Origin: a virus
Taxonomy: Duplodnaviria > Heunggongvirae > Uroviricota > Caudoviricetes
IMG/VR virus record: IMGVR_UViG_2695420650_000004
Length of the DNA: 4,951 nt
Strand: one strand, 5' to 3'
Made by a program: the position numbers and the translations under genes. Within the stretch, counting starts at the first letter, position 1. Every line of letters starts with the position of its first letter. This document shows, in pieces, positions 1 to 4,914 of the stretch. The notes under the pieces are model-generated. The model had not been told where the DNA came from and made no database searches. It saw only the letters and a program-made list of their open reading frames with translations.

Positions 1-119
1 ATTAGCTCCTTCTGATGCCATTCTATTTCAGGAAGGAGTGTCCGTTAAACTCAGGCTACCTCAGGTTATTCGCTTCTGGGCATGGGCGGATCAACAAATG
101 ATAGACGGTAATGCAGATT

Positions 120-138
120 GTAACGCTCGCGGCGTTAC
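120..138. promoter_or_regulatory. 19-bp dyad-symmetric site GTAACGC-N5-GCGTTAC (site A), candidate iteron or operator
   Basis: Read directly: GTAACGCTCGCGGCGTTAC, with 7-bp arms that are exact reverse complements. The same arms recur at 329-347. Confidence 0.4.
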
Positions 139-328
139 AAAAAGTGCAATAGATCGCATCACTTTTATGTCTGGTTTTGCTGATGCGTTAATTCAGGTTG
201 GATGGCTGGTCGAAAATGACGGAGGGCTTTCTCTACCTAACTTTGAACGTCATAACGGAAAAAGCTCTAAAAAAAACGGGCGGTTACAAACGAGCGAGTA
301 ACAAAAATACGCGAACTGAAACGAAAAG

Positions 329-347
329 GTAACGCTGCCAGCGTTAC
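329..347. promoter_or_regulatory. 19-bp perfect palindrome GTAACGCTG-C-CAGCGTTAC (site B), candidate iteron or operator
   Basis: Read directly: 9-bp arms that are exact reverse complements. It shares the GTAACGC/GCGTTAC arms with site A, with a further half-site GCGTTAC at 364-370 and a near half-site GCGGTTAC at 280-287. Confidence 0.4.
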
Positions 348-373
348 ACAAACGGATCAAAAAGCGTTACCAG

Positions 374-393
374 AGGAAGAGGAAGAGGAAGAT
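374..393. repeat. Tandem hexamer microsatellite (GAGGAA)x3.3
   Basis: GAGGAAGAGGAAGAGGAAGA read directly; it encodes the EEEEEE(D) acidic linker in frame 1. Confidence 0.7.
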
Positions 394-746
394 CTAAATA
401 CTGATCTCCCCCTCGCCAAAAACGAGCGTCTAAAAAATTCGAGCCGGAGGCTATTGAGCTGCCCGATTGGTTGCCGGAAACACTCTGGCATGAGTGGGTC
501 CGGTTCAGACAGGCATTGCGAAAACCGATTCGAACGGAGCAGGGCGCTAACGGGGCGATACGGGAACTGGAAAAATTCCGTCAGCAGGGTTTTACACCTG
601 AGCAGGTGATTCGACACAGCATCGCCAATGAATACCAGGGCCTGTTCGCGCCGAAAGGTGTTCGGCCTGAGACGTTGCTCCGACAGGTTAACACCGTCTC
701 GTTGCCGGACAGTGCGATCCCGCCAGGCTTCAGGGGGTAACGGACC

Positions 747-1493
747 ATGAAAAATATTGCGACAGGCGGCGTTCTGGAACGCATCCGCCGACTGACCCCG
801 CCACATGTAACCGCCCCATTCAGAACGGTAGCGGAGTGGCGCGAGTGGCAACTTGCTGAAGGCCAGAAACGTAGCGAGGAGATCAACCGCCTGAATCGCC
901 AGTTGCGGGTGGAAAAAATTCTGAATCGCTCAGGCATCCAGCCGTTGCACCGTAAATGCTCGTTTGCGAATTACCAGGTGCAGAACGACGGCCAGCGATA
1001 CGCGTTAAGCCAGGCGAAATCCATCGCCGATGAACTGATGACCGGGTGTACAAATTTTGCGTTCAGCGGAAAACCTGGTACCGGGAAGAATCACTTAGCG
1101 GCAGCTATCGGGAATCGCCTGCTGAAAGACGGTCAGACAGTGATTGTGGTTACCGTGGCTGATGTTATGAGCGCCCTGCACGCCAGCTATGACGACGGGC
1201 AGTCAGGCGAAAAATTTTTGCGGGAGCTGTGCGAAGTGGATCTGCTGGTTCTTGATGAAATTGGCATTCAGCGCGAGACGAAAAACGAGCAGGTGGTGCT
1301 GCACCAGATTGTTGATCGCCGGACAGCGTCGATGCGCAGCGTGGGGATGCTGACAAACCTGAACTATGAGGTGATGAAAACATTGCTCGGCGAGCGGGTG
1401 ATGGATCGCATGGTCATGAACGGCGGGCGCTGGGTGAATTTTAACTGGGAGAGCTGGCGTCCGAATGTTAGCCATTCGAGGGTTGTTAAGTAG
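747..1493 (+). CDS. dnaC: DnaC-like replicative helicase loader (AAA+ ATPase), phage-encoded
   Basis: 248-aa ORF with Walker A GKPGTGKNHLAAAI and DnaC-like motifs along its length (NRSGI, CSF.NY, VDLLV(L/I)DEIG, GMLTN, LGERVMDRM, NW(E/D)S(W/Y)R). ATG 747 lies 6 nt after the upstream stop, with a G-rich ribosome-binding site at 733-737. Confidence 0.9.
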   Translation: MKNIATGGVLERIRRLTPPHVTAPFRTVAEWREWQLAEGQKRSEEINRLNRQLRVEKILNRSGIQPLHRKCSFANYQVQNDGQRYALSQAKSIADELMTGCTNFAFSGKPGTGKNHLAAAIGNRLLKDGQTVIVVTVADVMSALHASYDDGQSGEKFLRELCEVDLLVLDEIGIQRETKNEQVVLHQIVDRRTASMRSVGMLTNLNYEVMKTLLGERVMDRMVMNGGRWVNFNWESWRPNVSHSRVVK

Positions 1494-1507
1494 TTTCAGG
1501 AGGATTT

Positions 1508-1930
1508 ATGGCGAAACCTTTTACTCCCGAACAGCGGGAAGAACTGAAGACGCGAATTGTGGAACTCGTGCATCAGGACGGTCGGGTCACGATTCGGCAG
1601 TTGTCAGATGAAACAGGTATCAGTCGTGCGTCTGTCGGTCGCTTATGCATAGAACTGGTCGCAAGTGGTGATGTATATAATTCTGGCTACGGCTTATTCC
1701 CGTCTGAACAGGCTCGCAAGGACTGGCAAAGCGCCCGCAAAAAACTCTCGAGAGTAAAGGTGAGGAAACCGGTTGTTGTTGATCCGGACCTTATCTGGTC
1801 ATTACCTGACGGAGAAATACGCCGCTACGACAGGCGCCTGAATATAATCTGTCGCGAGTGCCGGAAGAGCGAAGCTATGCAGCGTGTACTGGCTTTCTAT
1901 CAGGGTAATTTTCAGGAGGCGATACTGTGA
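1508..1930 (+). CDS. Hypothetical protein with a predicted N-terminal helix-turn-helix (winged-helix-like), putative DNA-binding
   Basis: 140-aa ORF with ribosome-binding site AGGAGG 1498-1503 before ATG 1508. The N-terminal segment RVTIRQLSDETGISRASVGRLCIELVASGDV looks like a helix-turn-helix, and the C-terminus is basic. Function is not recognised. Confidence 0.75.
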   Translation: MAKPFTPEQREELKTRIVELVHQDGRVTIRQLSDETGISRASVGRLCIELVASGDVYNSGYGLFPSEQARKDWQSARKKLSRVKVRKPVVVDPDLIWSLPDGEIRRYDRRLNIICRECRKSEAMQRVLAFYQGNFQEAIL

Positions 1931-2344
1931 ATGAAATTAGCTATCAGGCTTCAATTACCGCTGGCATTCGCATCAAAGGAGAGGAGCATGGAAATAAAAC
2001 CAGAAGATGAGTTAAGCAATATTGTTTTATTTCCGGTAAAAGAGGATAACCCTCGTAATCAGGTTAATTTTCTTTATGAGCCATCGGAAAGACCATATTG
2101 CCATCACGCCTCTGTACGGGTTGACGAAAAAGAGCGTCAGGTCCGCTGTAAAATCTGCGGTGCGGTTGTGGAGCCGTTTGACTGGATGCTCTCTGTGGCA
2201 AAAAGAGAAACCAGACTGGCAGATGATGTAAGGCTATTGCGCCAGGAGGAACAGGAAAGGCGGAGAAATATAGAAAAGCTGATACAGATTGAGCGTAACG
2301 CGAAAGCGCGGATACGCAGGGCGACAAAATCCAGAACTGAATAA
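1931..2344 (+). CDS. Hypothetical protein with a putative zinc-ribbon-like Cys/His cluster and a charged C-terminal helix
   Basis: ATG 1931 directly follows the upstream TGA (TGAATG), with AGGAGG at 1914-1919. An alternative in-frame start at ATG 1988 has a better-spaced AAGGAG at 1976-1981 and would give 118 aa. The motif is CHH-x16-C-x2-C, followed by an Arg/Glu-rich coiled-coil-like tail. Confidence 0.7.
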   Translation: MKLAIRLQLPLAFASKERSMEIKPEDELSNIVLFPVKEDNPRNQVNFLYEPSERPYCHHASVRVDEKERQVRCKICGAVVEPFDWMLSVAKRETRLADDVRLLRQEEQERRRNIEKLIQIERNAKARIRRATKSRTE

Positions 2345-2379
2345 TTAAATTTAGCACTGTTAAAAATTTAATCCTTAAC

Positions 2380-2430
2380 CGGAGGGATTTCTGCACCCTC
2401 AAATCATCAGGAGACCACCCGAAAGGGCGG
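2380..2430 (+). repeat. Copy 1 of a 51-bp direct repeat forming two hairpins (second stem carries one mismatch)
   Basis: CGGAGGGATTTCTGCACCCTCAAATCATCAGGAGACCACCCGAAAGGGCGG. Hairpin 1 is GAGGG/CCCTC with a 9-nt loop; hairpin 2 is CCACCC-GAAA-GGGCGG with an A/C mismatch. It matches 2536-2586 at 50 of 51 positions. Confidence 0.85.
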
Positions 2431-2513
2431 GGAGCAGTCACACATCTGTTTCCGATAGCCCCGTTCTAATGCTACACTCTTTGATATTTTTATGACCCCA
2501 ATAAACATATTTA

Positions 2514-2535
2514 NNNNNNNNNNNNNNNNNNNNNN
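2514..2535. other. Assembly gap or masked bases (22 N)
   Basis: A run of 22 N characters read directly; it abuts the 5' edge of repeat copy 2. Confidence 1.
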
Positions 2536-2586
2536 CGGAGGGATTTCTGCACCCTCAAATCATCAGGAGACCGCCCGAAAGGGCGG
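2536..2586 (+). repeat. Copy 2 of the 51-bp direct repeat; hairpin 2 is perfect with a GNRA (GAAA) tetraloop
   Basis: CGGAGGGATTTCTGCACCCTCAAATCATCAGGAGACCGCCCGAAAGGGCGG. Stem 2 is A-CCGCCC-GAAA-GGGCGG-T (7 bp). The repeat ends 6 nt before ATG 2593. The upstream extent is hidden by the N run. Confidence 0.85.
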
Positions 2587-2592
2587 TAATGA

Positions 2593-2811
2593 ATGGTTAC
2601 ATTATTTAGAAAAAAATATCCGCGAAAGAGTAGAACAACAGAATTCCTGTTTCTCATTCTGTTTATCGTGTTGATGACACCGATATCCCCGCTAATTTTT
2701 GTCTGGATAATCGGAAAAATAATTGAGCCAGTTATTGAATTGTATAACGACGTGGTATGGGCGTCATTCAACACACTGCACAATAAAATTAATCCGTATA
2801 AGGAAAGCTGA
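2593..2811 (+). CDS. Putative small membrane protein (72 aa, one predicted transmembrane segment) in an AT-rich segment
   Basis: The ORF has a hydrophobic stretch FLFLILFIVLMTPISPLIFVWIIG. Its TGA at 2809-2811 lies 1 nt before the HNH ATG at 2813. Codon usage is AT-rich with rare AGA and ATA codons, and the ribosome-binding site is weak, so this is a low-confidence call. Confidence 0.35.
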   Translation: MVTLFRKKYPRKSRTTEFLFLILFIVLMTPISPLIFVWIIGKIIEPVIELYNDVVWASFNTLHNKINPYKES

Positions 2812-2812
2812 T

Positions 2813-3178
2813 ATGGCACTGACGAAAAAACAACGTGCAGAACTGCGCATGAAGTTCGGTGGTCGCTGCGCTTATTGCGGCTGCGAACTTGGCGAAAAGT
2901 GGCATGCAGACCATGTAAAACCGGTCATTCGTTTTGATGGAAATATGCTTCACCAGGAACGTGACGATATATCCAACATGGTACCAGCATGCCACCCATG
3001 CAATCTGCACAAGCATTGCAGTAGCCTGGAAGATTATCGACGAATTATCAGTGATGGTCGTCGTGAATTCCTTGCGTCCGGGAAAGGCAAAGCGCTGGTT
3101 CGTATGGGATTGGTTGAAATGAAATCTGACCCGGTTGTGTTCTGGTTTGAAAAATATCAAGAAGGGGCTACGGCATGA
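2813..3178 (+). CDS. HNH endonuclease (small, about 121 aa)
   Basis: Zinc-knuckle and catalytic motifs: CAYCGC ... HADH ... N ... CHPCNLHK. Ribosome-binding site AAGGA at 2800-2804 sits 8 nt before ATG 2813. The longer ORF from 2723 lacks a ribosome-binding site and adds a non-domain N-terminus. Confidence 0.85.
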   Translation: MALTKKQRAELRMKFGGRCAYCGCELGEKWHADHVKPVIRFDGNMLHQERDDISNMVPACHPCNLHKHCSSLEDYRRIISDGRREFLASGKGKALVRMGLVEMKSDPVVFWFEKYQEGATA

Positions 3179-3840
3179 CCACTATTACCAAAGAGCGACT
3201 GCAATGGCTGGCTAACATTTCTGGCCGCGATGATATTGACGATATAGACGGCGGTGAAATTCGTGAACTGGCGCTTATCGCTCTGGCATCACTGGAAGCA
3301 GAGCCTGTAGCGGAATGCATTGTTGAAGATGGGGGCATGTGTATTGACGGGTTCGGTGAGTATGTGGGTCACTCGCTGCCTGATGGAATGCATGAGCTTT
3401 ATGCTGCCCCGCGAATGCGACAACCTGATGGATGGAAAGCCGTAGCTGTAGCGTGGAAGGTGACGTTTACTCAAGTTGACCAGGAATCTAATACGTTCAC
3501 TGCTATATATTTTGACAAAGCGGAAGTTGAGTGTTGGGTACGACTGCATAAAGCATGTGATTTTCGGGCAGATATAACACCGCTTTACGCAGCGCCGGCA
3601 GTGCCGGTTGCAGTAAACGACGACATGGCTTACGCATTCCATCACGCACTGTCAGATTCATCGCTTGGCTCTGATGAAATCGAAGAAATTAAAACCGGTT
3701 TGCGTGCTGCCTTTGCCAACGTCACTATCCAACCAGAGCCGATAGTGCCGGATGAAATCGGGCCAAACGATAGTAATACGTTTGATTATGTTGATGGCTG
3801 GAACGCCTGCCGCGCTGCCATGCTTAAGGGAGATAAATAA
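3175..3840 (+). CDS. Hypothetical prophage protein (221 aa, acidic) with an internal repeated LYAAP motif
   Basis: ATG 3175 overlaps the HNH stop (ATGA), with GAAGGGG at 3161-3167. The LYAAP motif occurs twice (HELYAAPRMRQPDGW and ITPLYAAPAVPVAV). Function is not recognised. Confidence 0.8.
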   Translation: MTTITKERLQWLANISGRDDIDDIDGGEIRELALIALASLEAEPVAECIVEDGGMCIDGFGEYVGHSLPDGMHELYAAPRMRQPDGWKAVAVAWKVTFTQVDQESNTFTAIYFDKAEVECWVRLHKACDFRADITPLYAAPAVPVAVNDDMAYAFHHALSDSSLGSDEIEEIKTGLRAAFANVTIQPEPIVPDEIGPNDSNTFDYVDGWNACRAAMLKGDK

Positions 3841-4205
3841 TGATTAATCGAACCAAACTGGAGCACATTCTCGAATATGCCAGGCAGCAGAAATGTATTG
3901 GGCAACTTTGTAAAATTCCACCAGGAGATATGGTTGAAATCGTGGAAATGGCCATGCGTAAGGCTGGCAACTCTCCGGTAGCTCCGGCTGGCTGGATAAG
4001 CTGTAGTGATGCAGTTCCTGCTGAATATTGCGATGTGATTCTTCTCGATGATCTCGGGAATGTATTCCCCGGTTCCTGGGATAAGGTTTTTTGCCCCACT
4101 CGTGGCGGGAATAAGATGGCTTTTGTGGACAAAGACGGCGTTGAAGTAGAGAGCTCAACTCACTGGATGCCGCTACCGGAACCACCGCAGGAGGTGAATC
4201 AATGA
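3840..4205 (+). CDS. DUF551-like phage protein
   Basis: Start overlaps the upstream stop (TAATG), with ribosome-binding site AAGGGA at 3826-3831. The C-terminus THWMPLPEPP is the hallmark I associate with the DUF551 family common in lambdoid nin regions. Confidence 0.8.
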   Translation: MINRTKLEHILEYARQQKCIGQLCKIPPGDMVEIVEMAMRKAGNSPVAPAGWISCSDAVPAEYCDVILLDDLGNVFPGSWDKVFCPTRGGNKMAFVDKDGVEVESSTHWMPLPEPPQEVNQ

Positions 4206-4285
4206 CCTGGCCTGAGGCATTCACCACGGTAGGAATTGCGATGGCGGTGGCGCTGGTGGTGTATTCGATTTGCCGTTGGGGTTAA
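4202..4285 (+). CDS. Small hydrophobic peptide (27 aa, MTWPEAFTTVGIAMAVALVVYSICRWG), putative single-pass membrane peptide
   Basis: Not in the ORF track because it is too short. A consensus ribosome-binding site AGGAGG at 4189-4194 sits 7 nt before ATG 4202, which overlaps the DUF551 stop (ATGA). It is followed 10 nt later by a strong intrinsic terminator. Confidence 0.5.
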   Translation: MTWPEAFTTVGIAMAVALVVYSICRWG

Positions 4286-4294
4286 CAAACAAAA

Positions 4295-4321
4295 ACCCCG
4301 GATTGATGGTCCGGGGTTTTT
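4295..4321 (+). terminator. Rho-independent terminator closing the HNH/DUF551 operon
   Basis: An 8-bp GC-rich stem ACCCCGGA/TCCGGGGT (4295-4302 and 4310-4317) with a 7-nt loop, followed by TTTT at 4318-4321. An A-run upstream means it could work in both directions. Confidence 0.8.
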
Positions 4322-4455
4322 GAAGGAAACAAAACAGAAACAGCAATTGCCGTTACCTGTTGTTACCATGGCAAGTAAACGTATCTCAGGCGAGCGCATT
4401 GCGCCGTTCTGACGCAGATAAACTAGCCTGGATAGATGGTGCTGGCAATAAAAAA

Positions 4456-4491
4456 TAGCGTTTTCTTATCGGTGTCGGTAAGATTGCTGCG
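4456..4491 (+). promoter_or_regulatory. Putative weak promoter of the hok/mok mRNA
   Basis: -10-like TAAGAT at 4479-4484 with a poor -35. The predicted start near 4491 would give a 5' end GGGUGCUUGAGG, resembling the plasmid R1 hok mRNA 5' end (GGCGCUUGAGG) as I recall it. Confidence 0.4.
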
Positions 4492-4540
4492 GGTGCTTGA
4501 GGCTGTCTGCCTCGGGTATGTCACTGTAAGGCAGACAGAG

Positions 4541-4611
4541 AAAAGCCCCAGTTAACATTACGCGTCCTGCAAGACGCTTAACATTAATCTGAGGCCCAAT
4601 CTATGTCTCAC
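4541..4611 (-). ncRNA. sok: Sok-like antisense RNA (type I antitoxin), predicted
   Basis: A minus-strand promoter is readable as -35 TTGCCT (complement of 4641-4646), a 17-bp spacer, and -10 TAACCT (complement of 4618-4623), which parallels my recollection of the R1 sok promoter. The transcript would be antisense to the mok ribosome-binding site and start codon. A predicted terminator is a 7-bp stem (complement of 4589-4595 paired with 4545-4551, one G-U pair) followed by UUUU. Confidence 0.5.
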
Positions 4612-4815
4612 AAATGTAGGTTAGCCTCTTACGTGCCGAAAGGCAAGGAGAAGCAGGCTATGAAGCAGCAAAAGGCGATGTTAATCGCCCTGATCGTCAT
4701 CTGTTTAACCGTCATTGTGACGGCACTGGTAACGAGGAAAGACCTCTGCGAGGTACGAATCCGAATCGGCCAGACGGAGGTCGCTGTTTTCGTAGACTAC
4801 GAATCTAGAGAGTAA
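4603..4815 (+). CDS. mok: Mok-like reading frame (in-frame N-terminal extension of hok that couples hok translation)
   Basis: ATG 4603 with GAGG at 4591-4594. The 70-aa ORF MSHKCRLASYVPKGKEKQA-MKQQ... has the same architecture as chromosomal MokC/HokC as I recall it. Confidence 0.6.
   Translation: MSHKCRLASYVPKGKEKQAMKQQKAMLIALIVICLTVIVTALVTRKDLCEVRIRIGQTEVAVFVDYESRE
4660..4815 (+). CDS. hok: Hok/Gef family type I toxin (51 aa)
   Basis: MKQQKAMLIALIVICLTVIVTALVTRKDLCEVRIRIGQTEVAVFVDYESRE is near-identical in pattern to HokD/RelF and HokC/Gef. Ribosome-binding site AAGGAG at 4645-4650 precedes ATG 4660. Confidence 0.85.
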   Translation: MKQQKAMLIALIVICLTVIVTALVTRKDLCEVRIRIGQTEVAVFVDYESRE

Positions 4816-4876
4816 GAGTGACCAGGCGGGAGAGTAATCTCCCGCCACCTTTGATGTGTCAGGCATCCTCAACGCA

Positions 4877-4914
4877 CCCGCACTTAACCCGTTTCGGCGG
4901 TTTTTTTGGTAATG
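4877..4914 (+). terminator. Probable 3' end and terminator of the hok mRNA (weak hairpin plus U7)
   Basis: CCGC...GCGG and CCG-TTT-CGG pairings followed by TTTTTTT at 4901-4907. It lies just downstream of the 3' fold-back element GCACCCGC at 4874-4881. Confidence 0.45.

What the first reader, a model, noticed from the sequence alone, without database searches (positions are those of the whole stretch)
2593..4321. Five-cistron translationally coupled operon: small membrane ORF, HNH endonuclease, 221-aa protein, DUF551-like protein and 27-aa peptide, ended by a strong terminator
Consecutive genes are joined by overlapping or abutting stop and start codons: TGA-t-ATG at 2809-2815, ATGA at 3175-3178, TAATG at 3838-3842 and ATGA at 4202-4205. 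A single intrinsic terminator follows. This implies co-expression and possibly a stoichiometric complex. A small nuclease bracketed by two membrane peptides and two proteins of unknown function in a prophage accessory region is the kind of cassette that often turns out to be a defence, anti-defence or superinfection-exclusion module, though nothing here matches a system I can name. The 5' end (2590-2810) is visibly AT-rich with rare codons, suggesting separate acquisition.
Basis: partly seen in the sequence, partly recalled or inferred. Interest (0 to 1): 0.6.

Follow-up and report, generated by a model that had tools for sequence, protein, structure and literature searches.

The report
Mosaic accessory gene run in prophage
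The five tightly packed genes are real, but they are an ordinary mix-and-match stretch of accessory genes in the early operon of an E. coli/Shigella lambda-like prophage, not a dedicated five-part machine; the only mildly new point is that the 27-codon last gene is a genuine, widely conserved and usually unannotated small membrane protein.

Summary
Observation confirmed.

Interpretation only partly supported. The block lies in the early-right accessory region of a Rac-like lambdoid prophage of E. coli/Shigella, between the replication genes and hok/sok. No promoter of its own was detected.

The five genes assort independently. In 5426 complete E. coli genomes:
- DUF4014 is in 1012 genomes.
- HNH is in 703.
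- The 27-aa ORF is in 1293.
- The whole cassette is in 2.

HNH is followed, always by an ATGA overlap, by more than 25 different genes. DUF4014 occurs without HNH in phage 933W. The 221-aa protein is a string of five short shuffled modules, each found elsewhere fused to DUF551, Ead/Ea22 or DUF550 domains. The same slot holds queH in a sibling prophage, and in 933W no cargo separates the 118-aa-like gene from p27.

New detail: the 27-aa ORF is a real gene under purifying selection (dN/dS about 0.27), with homology blocks that start and stop at its codons. The window itself joins two contigs at the N-run.

Overall this is ordinary and of low interest.

The parts
2514..2535 (.). Run of 22 N marking the join of two contigs from two sibling prophages. 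It is not part of the biology, but it sets the true left limit of the block in this window.
   Evidence: Window 63-2513 is 99.3% identical to the queH-carrying prophage (L006). Window 2536-4910 is 99.7% identical to the cassette prophage (L001), in which the 51-nt element occurs only once.
2536..2586 (+). Conserved 51-nt element with two hairpins (GAGGG...CCCTC and CCGCCC-GAAA-GGGCGG). It follows the upstream 118-aa gene and forms the left border of the variable slot. A second copy lies at 2380-2430.
   Evidence: Direct repeat D1, 98% identical. The fold is -27.2 kcal/mol, z = -4.1. The same element precedes queH in L006 and matches in about 1700 E. coli genomes. No T-run follows, so it is not an intrinsic terminator.
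2593..2811 (+). DUF4014 gene: a 72-aa hydrophobic, AT-rich small protein, probably membrane-inserted.
   Evidence: PF13198, E = 1.3e-25, model positions 1-71 of 72. phrog_1832, E = 1.5e-44. Annotated by PGAP in L001. Present in 1012 of 5426 E. coli genomes at 1720 places. Found in 933W without HNH.
2813..3178 (+). 121-aa free-standing HNH (beta-beta-alpha-metal) nuclease with an intact zinc and catalytic motif: C19, C22, H31, D33, H34, N55, C60, C63, N64, K67.
   Evidence: PF01844, 28.2 bits. phrog_2118, E = 8.8e-57. The motif residues are invariant in homologues from lambdoid HK225, T1-like IMM-001 and T4-like JSE. Closest solved chain by sequence is 4h9d, E = 0.058.
3175..3840 (+). 221-aa modular protein. 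An N-terminal helical leader (1-46, ending ALASLEAEP) is followed by four short modules joined by LYAAP / PxVPD linkers.
   Evidence: No Pfam hit; patchy PHROG hits to separate segments. 3289 partial homologues carry single modules fused to DUF551, Ead_Ea22 or DUF550. AlphaFold2 mean pLDDT is 53.5, and only residues 91-138 are confident. The full-length gene is in only 2 E. coli genomes.
3840..4205 (+). 121-aa DUF551 protein: a helical N-terminal part plus a small all-beta DUF551 domain (residues 51-117).
4202..4285 (+). 27-aa ORF (MTWPEAFTTVGIAMAVALVVYSICRWG): a real, conserved single-span membrane peptide gene with a strong SD (AGGAGGTG). RefSeq does not annotate it.
   Evidence: There are 24 distinct 84-nt alleles. 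Distinct substitutions are 31 synonymous and 24 nonsynonymous, against 60 and 174 possible. The other two frames give 13/41 and 10/45. Homology blocks start exactly at 4202 (43 cases) and end at 4285-4288 (46 cases). A GGAGG is kept in nearly all of the different upstream contexts. The ORF is in 1293 of 5426 E. coli genomes and 90 phage records including 933W. It is annotated in a few GenBank records.
4290..4322 (+). Intrinsic terminator hairpin of bidirectional shape, 4 nt after the p27 stop codon.
   Evidence: -23 kcal/mol, z = -5.0 on the + strand; -20.7 kcal/mol on the - strand. Listed by the scanner. Downstream of p27 in other loci there is this hairpin, a different hairpin, or none.

Best explanation
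The block is a segment of the early-right (pR-type) transcription unit of a Rac-like lambdoid prophage of E. coli/Shigella. It occupies a variable accessory slot between the replication genes plus a 118-aa zinc-ribbon gene on the left and the hok/sok locus on the right.

It is a mosaic of at least four independently exchangeable units:
- DUF4014
- HNH
- one or more Ea-type modular proteins (here the 221-aa protein and the DUF551 protein)
- the 27-aa peptide gene with a terminator

Shown: the five genes are intact. They are packed by stop/start overlaps with internal Shine-Dalgarno sequences and are followed by a strong hairpin terminator.

Inferred: they are transcribed only when the early promoter fires on induction or infection, by read-through from the replication genes. 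Each cistron is translated by re-initiation or coupling from the one before. The terminator then limits read-through into hok/sok unless RNA polymerase is antiterminated.

The products most likely act separately (inferred):
- an active small HNH nuclease of a family that occurs free-standing in many unrelated phages (selfish/homing-like or DNA-processing)
- two Ea22/YfdS-like modular host-modulating proteins
- two small inner-membrane proteins

The overlaps reflect genome compaction and recombination at gene boundaries, not a fixed-stoichiometry complex.
For: Context. Annotated complete genomes show the order YdaS/YdaT/YdaU/ATPase/DUF977, then the 118-aa gene, then this block, then hok, then DUF1367/DUF1364/DUF1133, then tRNAs, then lysis genes, all on one strand.

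No own promoter. No + strand sigma70-like site was found in the window or in intact L001.

Independent assortment:
- Whole cassette at 80% coverage or more: 2 of 5426 E. coli genomes.
- DUF4014: 1012 genomes.
- HNH: 703 genomes, 385 of them full length.
- p27: 1293 genomes.
- Full p221: 2 genomes. Full DUF551 gene: 2 genomes.

In 79 IMG/VR loci with a nearly identical HNH, the next gene overlaps by ATGA but has more than 25 lengths and types. The 114-aa type occurs about 28 times and the 221-aa type about 16 times. DUF4014 is upstream in about 58.

Other contexts:
- 933W carries DUF4014 in the pL exo-xis region next to an unrelated gene.
- ArgO145 carries DUF4014-HNH-114aa-p27 in the pL region.
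- HK225 has the order HNH then DUF4014.
- 73 of 80 HK225-type HNH loci have no DUF4014.

Slot variability. A sibling prophage holds queH in the same slot. In 933W the 118-aa-like gene is followed directly by p27 and hok/sok.

Module shuffling within p221 and the DUF551 gene. This agrees with the published description of mosaic Ea22/exo-xis genes and of DUF551 as a portable domain (PMC10834534; PMC8614690).

The HNH motif is intact and invariant. p27 is under purifying selection. The terminator is strong.
Against: No expression or phenotype data were available.

Promoter scans by consensus are weak, so a non-canonical or activator-dependent promoter cannot be excluded.

Within the window's own HNH clade, DUF4014 and HNH are adjacent in about three quarters of loci. 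They are also adjacent, in the opposite order, in HK225. This could reflect some functional link rather than shared descent only.

The gene after HNH is nearly always of one superfamily (MT..T.E.L leader ending ALASLEAEP or ALAAMDSE) in two HNH clades. I did not test this against a base rate.

The functions of all five products remain unproven.
Confidence: 0.8

Rival explanations
1. The five products form one co-expressed functional module (defence, anti-defence or superinfection exclusion). The HNH nuclease would be the effector and the neighbours its partners, with translational coupling setting the stoichiometry.
For: Tight coupling geometry and a single terminator. A nuclease flanked by two small membrane proteins. 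DUF4014 and HNH are adjacent in about 58 of 79 close loci and, in reversed order, in HK225.
Against: The parts occur separately hundreds to more than a thousand times, while the set occurs twice. Partners downstream of HNH are highly variable. 73 of 80 HK225-type HNH loci lack DUF4014. PADLOC gives only generic HNH-core hits, and no partner such as PtuA is present. No lysogen-type promoter was found, whereas prophage defence genes normally need one.
Confidence: 0.06
2. The HNH gene is a selfish, homing-type mobile nuclease gene. Its cutting of HNH-less sibling phages and the repair that follows drive cassette exchange at this site. This would explain near-identical HNH copies beside very different flanks.
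For: The HNH is 96-100% identical across 80 loci whose neighbours differ. Full-length homologues are free-standing in unrelated phages (T4-like JSE next to DNA ligase, T1-like IMM-001, Caulobacter RLK annotated as a homing endonuclease). Homology breakpoints lie at the gene's edges. The catalytic motif is intact.
Against: At 121 aa it has no recognisable sequence-specific DNA-binding domain. Other modules here (p27, the 118-aa gene) are equally well conserved across mosaics, so high identity is not special to HNH. No target site was identified, and gene-boundary breakpoints are general in lambdoid phages.
Confidence: 0.15
3. The 27-codon ORF is mainly a regulatory leader. A ribosome finishing at its stop codon, 4 nt before the hairpin, would hinder terminator formation, so read-through into hok and the late-regulator region would depend on translation of the upstream genes.
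For: The stop codon at 4283-4285 lies 4 nt from the base of the hairpin at 4290. A terminator-like hairpin follows p27 in two different sequence versions. A strong SD is kept in nearly all upstream contexts.
Against: The amino-acid sequence itself is under purifying selection. Several DNA alleles encode the identical peptide, and divergent alleles keep the WPEAF motif and the hydrophobic span. Some loci have no terminator after p27. A terminator right after the last stop codon is commonplace.
Confidence: 0.05
4. The block is decaying, functionless cargo of a cryptic prophage. The ORFs are remnants, and the 27-aa ORF is a chance ORF.
For: The neighbouring replication gene in the left-hand contig is frameshifted. 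The reference locus has an IS insertion and a split YdaU gene. No function is known for four of the five products.
Against: All five ORFs are intact. The same proteins recur at 97-100% identity in hundreds of genomes and in plaque-forming or inducible phages (ArgO145, HK225, 933W). The p27 substitution pattern is frame-specific. HNH catalytic residues are invariant.
Confidence: 0.05

Closest known systems
Lambda nin region and lambda/Stx-phage exo-xis region (early accessory gene arrays of lambdoid phages)
   Same: Runs of small same-strand genes inside the pR or pL early operons. Overlapping or abutting stop and start codons. Dispensable genes of mostly unknown function. Heavy mosaicism with breakpoints at gene or domain borders. 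Terminators that are read through by antitermination. The same genes (DUF4014, HNH, p27, Ea-type proteins) are found in the exo-xis/pL region of ArgO145 and 933W. The mosaic nature is described in PMC10834534 and PMC8614690.
   Different: The gene content differs from lambda's own nin and exo-xis genes. Here the replication module is Rac-type (YdaS/T/U/V/W-like), and the slot lies between a 118-aa zinc-ribbon gene and hok/sok. Antitermination in this prophage type was not examined.
Ea22 / Ead-Ea22-like and DUF551 proteins (lambda Ea22, Stx-phage Ea22 variants, E. coli CPS-53 YfdS)
   Same: An N-terminal helical part followed by portable C-terminal domains. DUF551 is one such domain (PMC10834534; PMC4776307). 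Modules of p221 occur fused to Ead_Ea22 (PF13935), DUF551 and DUF550 in homologues.
   Different: p221 itself has no Pfam domain and no Ead_Ea22 coiled coil. The window's DUF551 protein has a different N-terminus from Ea22_V2 and YfdS. None of the reported activities (pro-lysogenic effect, oxidative-stress tolerance, DnaA-related suppression) was tested.
Small free-standing phage HNH endonucleases (PF01844; e.g. Geobacter Gmet_0936, PDB 4h9d; phage homing-type HNH genes)
   Same: A CxxC...DH...N...CxxCN..K zinc/HNH motif in a protein of about 110-130 aa. Free-standing genes in many phage types.
   Different: It is not next to terminase, unlike HK97 gp74-type HNH proteins. It falls below the Pfam cutoff for NinG/Rap (18.2 against 25.4 bits). 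It lacks the ATPase partner of Septu or retron PtuB nucleases. Its substrate is unknown.

Membership tests
Lambdoid-prophage early accessory region (nin / exo-xis type) | Lies inside the early operon, on the same strand as the replication genes and upstream of late-regulator and lysis genes | tested here: met
   Annotated contexts in L001, L002 and L003. The block also lies in the pL region in ArgO145 and 933W.
Lambdoid-prophage early accessory region (nin / exo-xis type) | Compact array of small genes with overlapping or abutting stop and start codons and no promoter of its own | tested here: met
   Junctions read. The -4/-1 overlaps are conserved with many partners. No + strand promoter-like site was found; the consensus scan is weak evidence.
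Lambdoid-prophage early accessory region (nin / exo-xis type) | Mosaic: genes and gene segments assort independently among related phages | tested here: met
HNH endonuclease (PF01844) | Score above the Pfam gathering cutoff, with the catalytic His, structural Asn and four zinc Cys present | tested here: met
   28.2 bits against 21.4. C19, C22, D33, H34, N55, C60, C63 and N64 are invariant in the alignment. Nuclease activity was not tested.
Terminase-associated HNH (HK97 gp74 type) | Gene adjacent to the terminase/portal genes at the cos end | tested here: not met
   The gene lies between the replication genes and hok, several kb upstream of the lysis genes.
NinG/Rap (PF05766) | Score above the Pfam gathering cutoff over the family's length | tested here: not met
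   18.2 bits against 25.4; only profile positions 93-147 of 193 are matched.
Septu / retron-type PtuB HNH defence nuclease | PtuB-length HNH protein encoded next to a PtuA ATPase (or a retron RT and ncRNA) | tested here: not met
   Best PADLOC hit is PtuB at E = 3.2e-8, covering only profile positions 20-88 of 227. No ATPase or RT is in the block, and the other four proteins have no PADLOC hit.
DUF4014 (PF13198) | Full-length match above the cutoff | tested here: met
   90 bits against 23.2; positions 1-71 of 72.
DUF551 (PF04448) | Domain match above the cutoff | tested here: met
   69.9 bits against 22; residues 51-117 match positions 1-68 of 68.
Rho-independent terminator | GC-rich hairpin followed by a U-run, more stable than shuffled sequence | tested here: met
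   -23 kcal/mol, z = -5.0, with UUUUU after the stem. Termination in vivo was not tested.
Multi-protein complex encoded by a translationally coupled operon | Conserved co-occurrence of the subunit genes across genomes | tested here: not met
   The set is in 2 of 5426 genomes, against 703-1293 for single parts.
Multi-protein complex encoded by a translationally coupled operon | Physical interaction of the products | not testable with these tools
   No multimer prediction or experiment was available.

The most novel reading that the evidence does not exclude
Two readings remain open.

(a) In two HNH clades that are 61% identical, the nuclease gene is nearly always followed, by an ATGA overlap, by a member of one hypervariable family. 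That family has a helical leader ending ALASLEAEP or ALAAMDSE, followed by swappable modules. HNH and this family could form a two-part system in which the variable protein directs or regulates the nuclease. Alternatively, the HNH could be a homing nuclease that drives diversification of this slot.

(b) The unannotated 27-aa membrane peptide is present in about a quarter of E. coli genomes and in Stx phages. It typically sits at the end of Ea-type gene arrays and often directly before hok/sok, and could have a conserved function of its own, such as exclusion or membrane targeting.
Probability: 0.1. Interest if true: 0.5.

Novelty: already known. Interest (0 to 1): 0.15.

Why it matters
It matters little as a discovery. 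The region is a textbook example of the mosaic, tightly packed accessory arrays of lambdoid prophages, and four of the five genes are already annotated in RefSeq. Two points are useful.

First, tight stop/start overlaps in phage early regions should not be read as evidence for a protein complex. Neighbourhood statistics here show independent assortment.

Second, the 27-codon ORF is a genuine conserved gene that standard annotation misses in more than a thousand E. coli genomes and in Stx phages. It would be cheap to test, as would the small HNH that accompanies it.

Tried and rejected
- Defence-system models (PADLOC) gave only generic HNH-core hits to PtuB, PDC-M01B and similar, and nothing for the other four proteins.
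- NCBIfam gave nothing above cutoff.
- Sequence search of solved structures: HNH best hit 4h9d at E = 0.058; nothing for DUF551; nothing meaningful for p221.
- AlphaFold2 of p221 with a 36-sequence alignment gave mean pLDDT 53.5, confident only for residues 91-138. I did not run a fold search on it because the model is too poor.
- Literature: no paper mentions DUF4014. The database labels for DUF4014, 'released from the phage upon host infection' and 'O-polysaccharide acetyltransferase inhibitor', could not be traced to any experiment, so I treat them as unverified.
- I tested the idea that DUF4014 and HNH are functionally linked, prompted by their reversed-order adjacency in HK225. It weakened when 73 of 80 HK225-type HNH loci proved to lack DUF4014.
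- The terminase-associated HNH and NinG/Rap readings were rejected on context and score.
- Rfam found only sok, outside the block. The sub-threshold minus-strand hits at 4285-4445 are driven by the terminator hairpin.
I repeated it without them.
Full report

Yes. The window sequence and the ORF list show five consecutive + strand ORFs:

| ORF | Coordinates | Length |
|---|---|---|
| DUF4014 | 2593-2811 | 72 aa |
| HNH | 2813-3178 | 121 aa |
| p221 | 3175-3840 | 221 aa |
| DUF551 | 3840-4205 | 121 aa |
| p27 | 4202-4285 | 27 aa |

Each of the four downstream starts has a purine-rich Shine-Dalgarno-like run 7-9 nt upstream, inside the preceding gene. The strongest is AGGAGGTG before the 27-codon ORF.

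Pfam confirms DUF4014 (90 bits), HNH (28.2 bits against a cutoff of 21.4) and DUF551 (69.9 bits). The 221-aa protein has no Pfam match.

The hairpin at 4290-4322 folds at -23 kcal/mol (z = -5.0, none of 200 shuffles as stable). It is also stable on the other strand, with A and T runs on both sides.

GC falls to 0.35 in 2501-2800, against about 0.44-0.55 in the rest of the block. The DUF4014 gene uses AGA, ATA, CGA and CTA codons.

**2. Where is it?**

The block is 99.8% identical to two complete E. coli chromosomes. The exact proteins are common in Shigella sonnei and S. flexneri.

In the annotated reference the gene order on one strand is:
- repressor and Cro-like genes
- YdaT, YdaU, an IstB/DnaC-like ATPase, DUF977
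- a 118-aa zinc-ribbon protein
- DUF4014, HNH, a hypothetical protein, DUF551
- hok
- DUF1367, DUF1364, DUF1133
- four tRNAs
- holin, lysozyme and the lysis protein

This is the early-right arm of a Rac-like lambdoid prophage. The block occupies the accessory region between the replication genes and the late-gene region.

No + strand sigma70-like promoter is detected ahead of it, either in the window or in the intact reference context. It is therefore best seen as part of the long early transcript rather than an operon of its own. The scan is a simple consensus match, so this is weak evidence.

**3. The window is a join of two contigs.**

- Positions 63-2513 are 99.3% identical to a sibling prophage elsewhere in the same reference genome.
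- Positions 2536-4910 are 99.7% identical to the cassette prophage.
- A 51-nt element is present on both sides of the N-run at 2514-2535 but only once in each reference locus.

The left neighbour seen in the window is therefore not the physical neighbour. The true neighbour is an equivalent gene set.

The comparison is informative. In the sibling prophage the same slot, after the 118-aa gene and the 51-nt two-hairpin element and before hok/sok, holds a queH gene instead of the cassette. In phage 933W a related zinc-ribbon gene is followed directly by a homologue of the 27-codon ORF and then by sokW/mokW/hokW.

**4. Do the five genes travel together?**

No.

Counts in 5426 complete E. coli genomes:

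| Element | Genomes |
|---|---|
| DUF4014 gene | 1012 (1720 places) |
| HNH gene | 703 (385 full length) |
| 27-codon ORF | 1293 |
| Full 221-aa gene | 2 |
| Full DUF551 gene | 2 |
| Whole block | 2 |

Neighbours of HNH. In 79 IMG/VR loci whose HNH is 96-100% identical to this one, the gene after HNH almost always overlaps it by ATGA. Yet it comes in more than 25 lengths and types. The most common is a 114-aa protein followed by p27 (about 28 loci). The window's 221 + 121 + 27 arrangement occurs about 16 times. DUF4014 is directly upstream in about 58 loci.

DUF4014 in other places:
- In 933W it sits in the pL exo-xis region next to an unrelated 95-aa gene.
- In ArgO145 the set DUF4014-HNH-114aa-p27 sits in the pL region.
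- In HK225 diverged copies (HNH 61% identical, DUF4014 47% identical) are adjacent in the opposite order.
- However, 73 of 80 loci of that HNH clade have no DUF4014 within 3 kb.

The 221-aa protein. It is itself a mosaic. Alignment of homologues shows an N-terminal helical leader (1-46, ending ALASLEAEP) and four short modules separated by LYAAP / PxVPD linkers. Each module is present or absent independently. Elsewhere the modules are fused to DUF551, Ead/Ea22 or DUF550 domains. The same holds for the DUF551 gene, whose domain half recurs with other N-termini.

**5. What can be said about the parts?**

*HNH.* The zinc cysteines and catalytic residues are all present: C19, C22, H31, D33, H34, N55, C60, C63, N64. 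They are invariant in full-length homologues from lambdoid HK225, T1-like IMM-001 and T4-like JSE. It is thus a complete, probably active, free-standing small nuclease.
- It is not next to terminase.
- It is below the cutoff for NinG/Rap.
- It matches defence models only through the generic HNH core, with no partner gene.

*p221.* AlphaFold2 gave a poor model (mean pLDDT 53.5) with one confident small beta-beta-alpha-beta unit at residues 91-138. This fits a beads-on-a-string protein.

*DUF4014.* It is a hydrophobic 72-aa protein. The database labels attached to it could not be traced to any experiment.

**6. The 27-codon ORF is a real gene.**

- Across the fetched loci there are 24 distinct 84-nt alleles. 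Distinct substitutions are 31 synonymous and 24 nonsynonymous, against 60 and 174 possible. That is a ratio of about 0.27. In the other two frames the counts are 13/41 and 10/45.
- Several different DNA sequences encode the identical peptide. Diverged alleles keep the WPEAF motif, the hydrophobic span and the length, including one in-frame deletion.
- Homology blocks between mosaics begin exactly at its ATG (43 cases) and end at or just after its stop (46 cases).
- Nearly every different upstream gene supplies a GGAGG at the right distance.
- Downstream there is this terminator, a different hairpin, or none.
- RefSeq does not annotate the ORF. A few GenBank records do.
- It usually closes an array of Ea-type genes and often lies just before hok/sok.

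**7. Most likely mechanism.**

Shown: intact genes, coupled-looking junctions, a strong terminator, and independent assortment.

Inferred: on induction or infection the early promoter drives transcription through the replication genes into this slot. Ribosomes pass from cistron to cistron through the overlaps. The terminator then reduces read-through into hok/sok unless the polymerase is antiterminated.

The products most likely act separately: a small nuclease (selfish/homing-like or DNA-processing), two Ea22/YfdS-like host-modulating proteins, and two small membrane proteins. I put about 0.8 on this 'mosaic array of independent early accessory genes' reading.

Rivals:
- A dedicated multi-protein module, about 0.06.
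- An HNH homing element that drives exchange in the slot, about 0.15. This is compatible with the main reading.
- p27 as a translational attenuator of the terminator, about 0.05.
- Dead cargo, about 0.05.

**8. Novelty and interest.**

The kind of region, the families and even the exact sequences are already in annotated genomes, so this is already known and of low interest (0.15).

Two readings are not excluded:
- HNH may work with the hypervariable leader-plus-modules family that follows it in two HNH clades.
- The p27 peptide may have a conserved function of its own.

I give these together about 0.1 probability and moderate interest if true.

Noticed in passing
window 2380-2430, 2514-2535, 2536-2586: The 22-N run joins two contigs from two sibling prophages. 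The left part is 99.3% identical to a queH-carrying prophage and the right part 99.7% identical to the cassette prophage. A 51-nt two-hairpin element is therefore present twice in the window but only once in each reference locus.
   Followed up: yes
L006 4174-4839 (E. coli FDAARGOS_944, 4.29 Mb prophage): The sibling prophage carries an epoxyqueuosine reductase gene (queH) in the same slot, between the 118-aa gene and hok. The first 83 nt of that insert are at window 2431-2513.
   Followed up: partly
window 1-740 (A-run at 269-276; deletion after 410): The YdaU/O-like replication gene is broken relative to the intact 262-aa copy in L006. It has A8 instead of A6 and a 10-bp deletion, for a net -8 nt. 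This is either a pseudogene or an assembly error in a homopolymer.
   Followed up: partly
window 4491-4815: A complete hok/sok/mok-type type I toxin-antitoxin locus lies here. Rfam sok scores 118 bits at 4491-4665. The Hok/Gef ORF has an upstream extension at 4603-4815.
   Followed up: partly
L245 2034-2950 (phage 933W, 58.4-59.4 kb): In 933W a zinc-ribbon protein related to the window's 118-aa protein is followed, by an ATGA overlap, by an unannotated p27 homologue and then by sokW/mokW/hokW. The frame 118-aa gene ... p27 ... hok thus exists there with no cargo between.
   Followed up: partly
L162 3001-3593 (phage HK225): Diverged HNH (61% identical) and DUF4014 (47% identical) genes are adjacent in the opposite order, again with an ATGA overlap. 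Only 7 of 80 loci of that HNH clade have a DUF4014.
   Followed up: yes
window 3175-3312 and the genes after HNH in L007-L086 and L165-L244: The gene after HNH nearly always begins MT(T/K/S)..T.E.L. It has a helical leader ending ALASLEAEP or ALAAMDSE, followed by variable modules. I did not test whether this adjacency exceeds the regional base rate.
   Followed up: partly
window 2565-2600: The DUF4014 start has no SD at normal spacing. The nearest AGGAG is 23 nt upstream, across the CCGCCC-GAAA-GGGCGG hairpin, and the predicted fold pairs the start-codon region. A 6-codon mini-ORF starts at 2589 in another frame.
   Followed up: no
L001 4320-5489: In the reference strain an ISEc52 (IS3 family, frameshifted) sits between DUF977 and the 118-aa gene, and the YdaU gene is split. 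That copy of the prophage is degraded too.
   Followed up: no
window 4323-4486: A 160-nt stretch between the terminator and the hok/sok module has no convincing ORF and no Rfam family. It travels with p27 and the terminator in L002 and L003 but is absent where p27 abuts hok directly.
   Followed up: no
window 1931-2344: The 118-aa zinc-ribbon gene (phrog_1621) is annotated from the ATG at 1988. An in-frame ATG at 1931 abuts the DUF977 stop codon (TGA-ATG), giving a possible 137-aa form.
   Followed up: no
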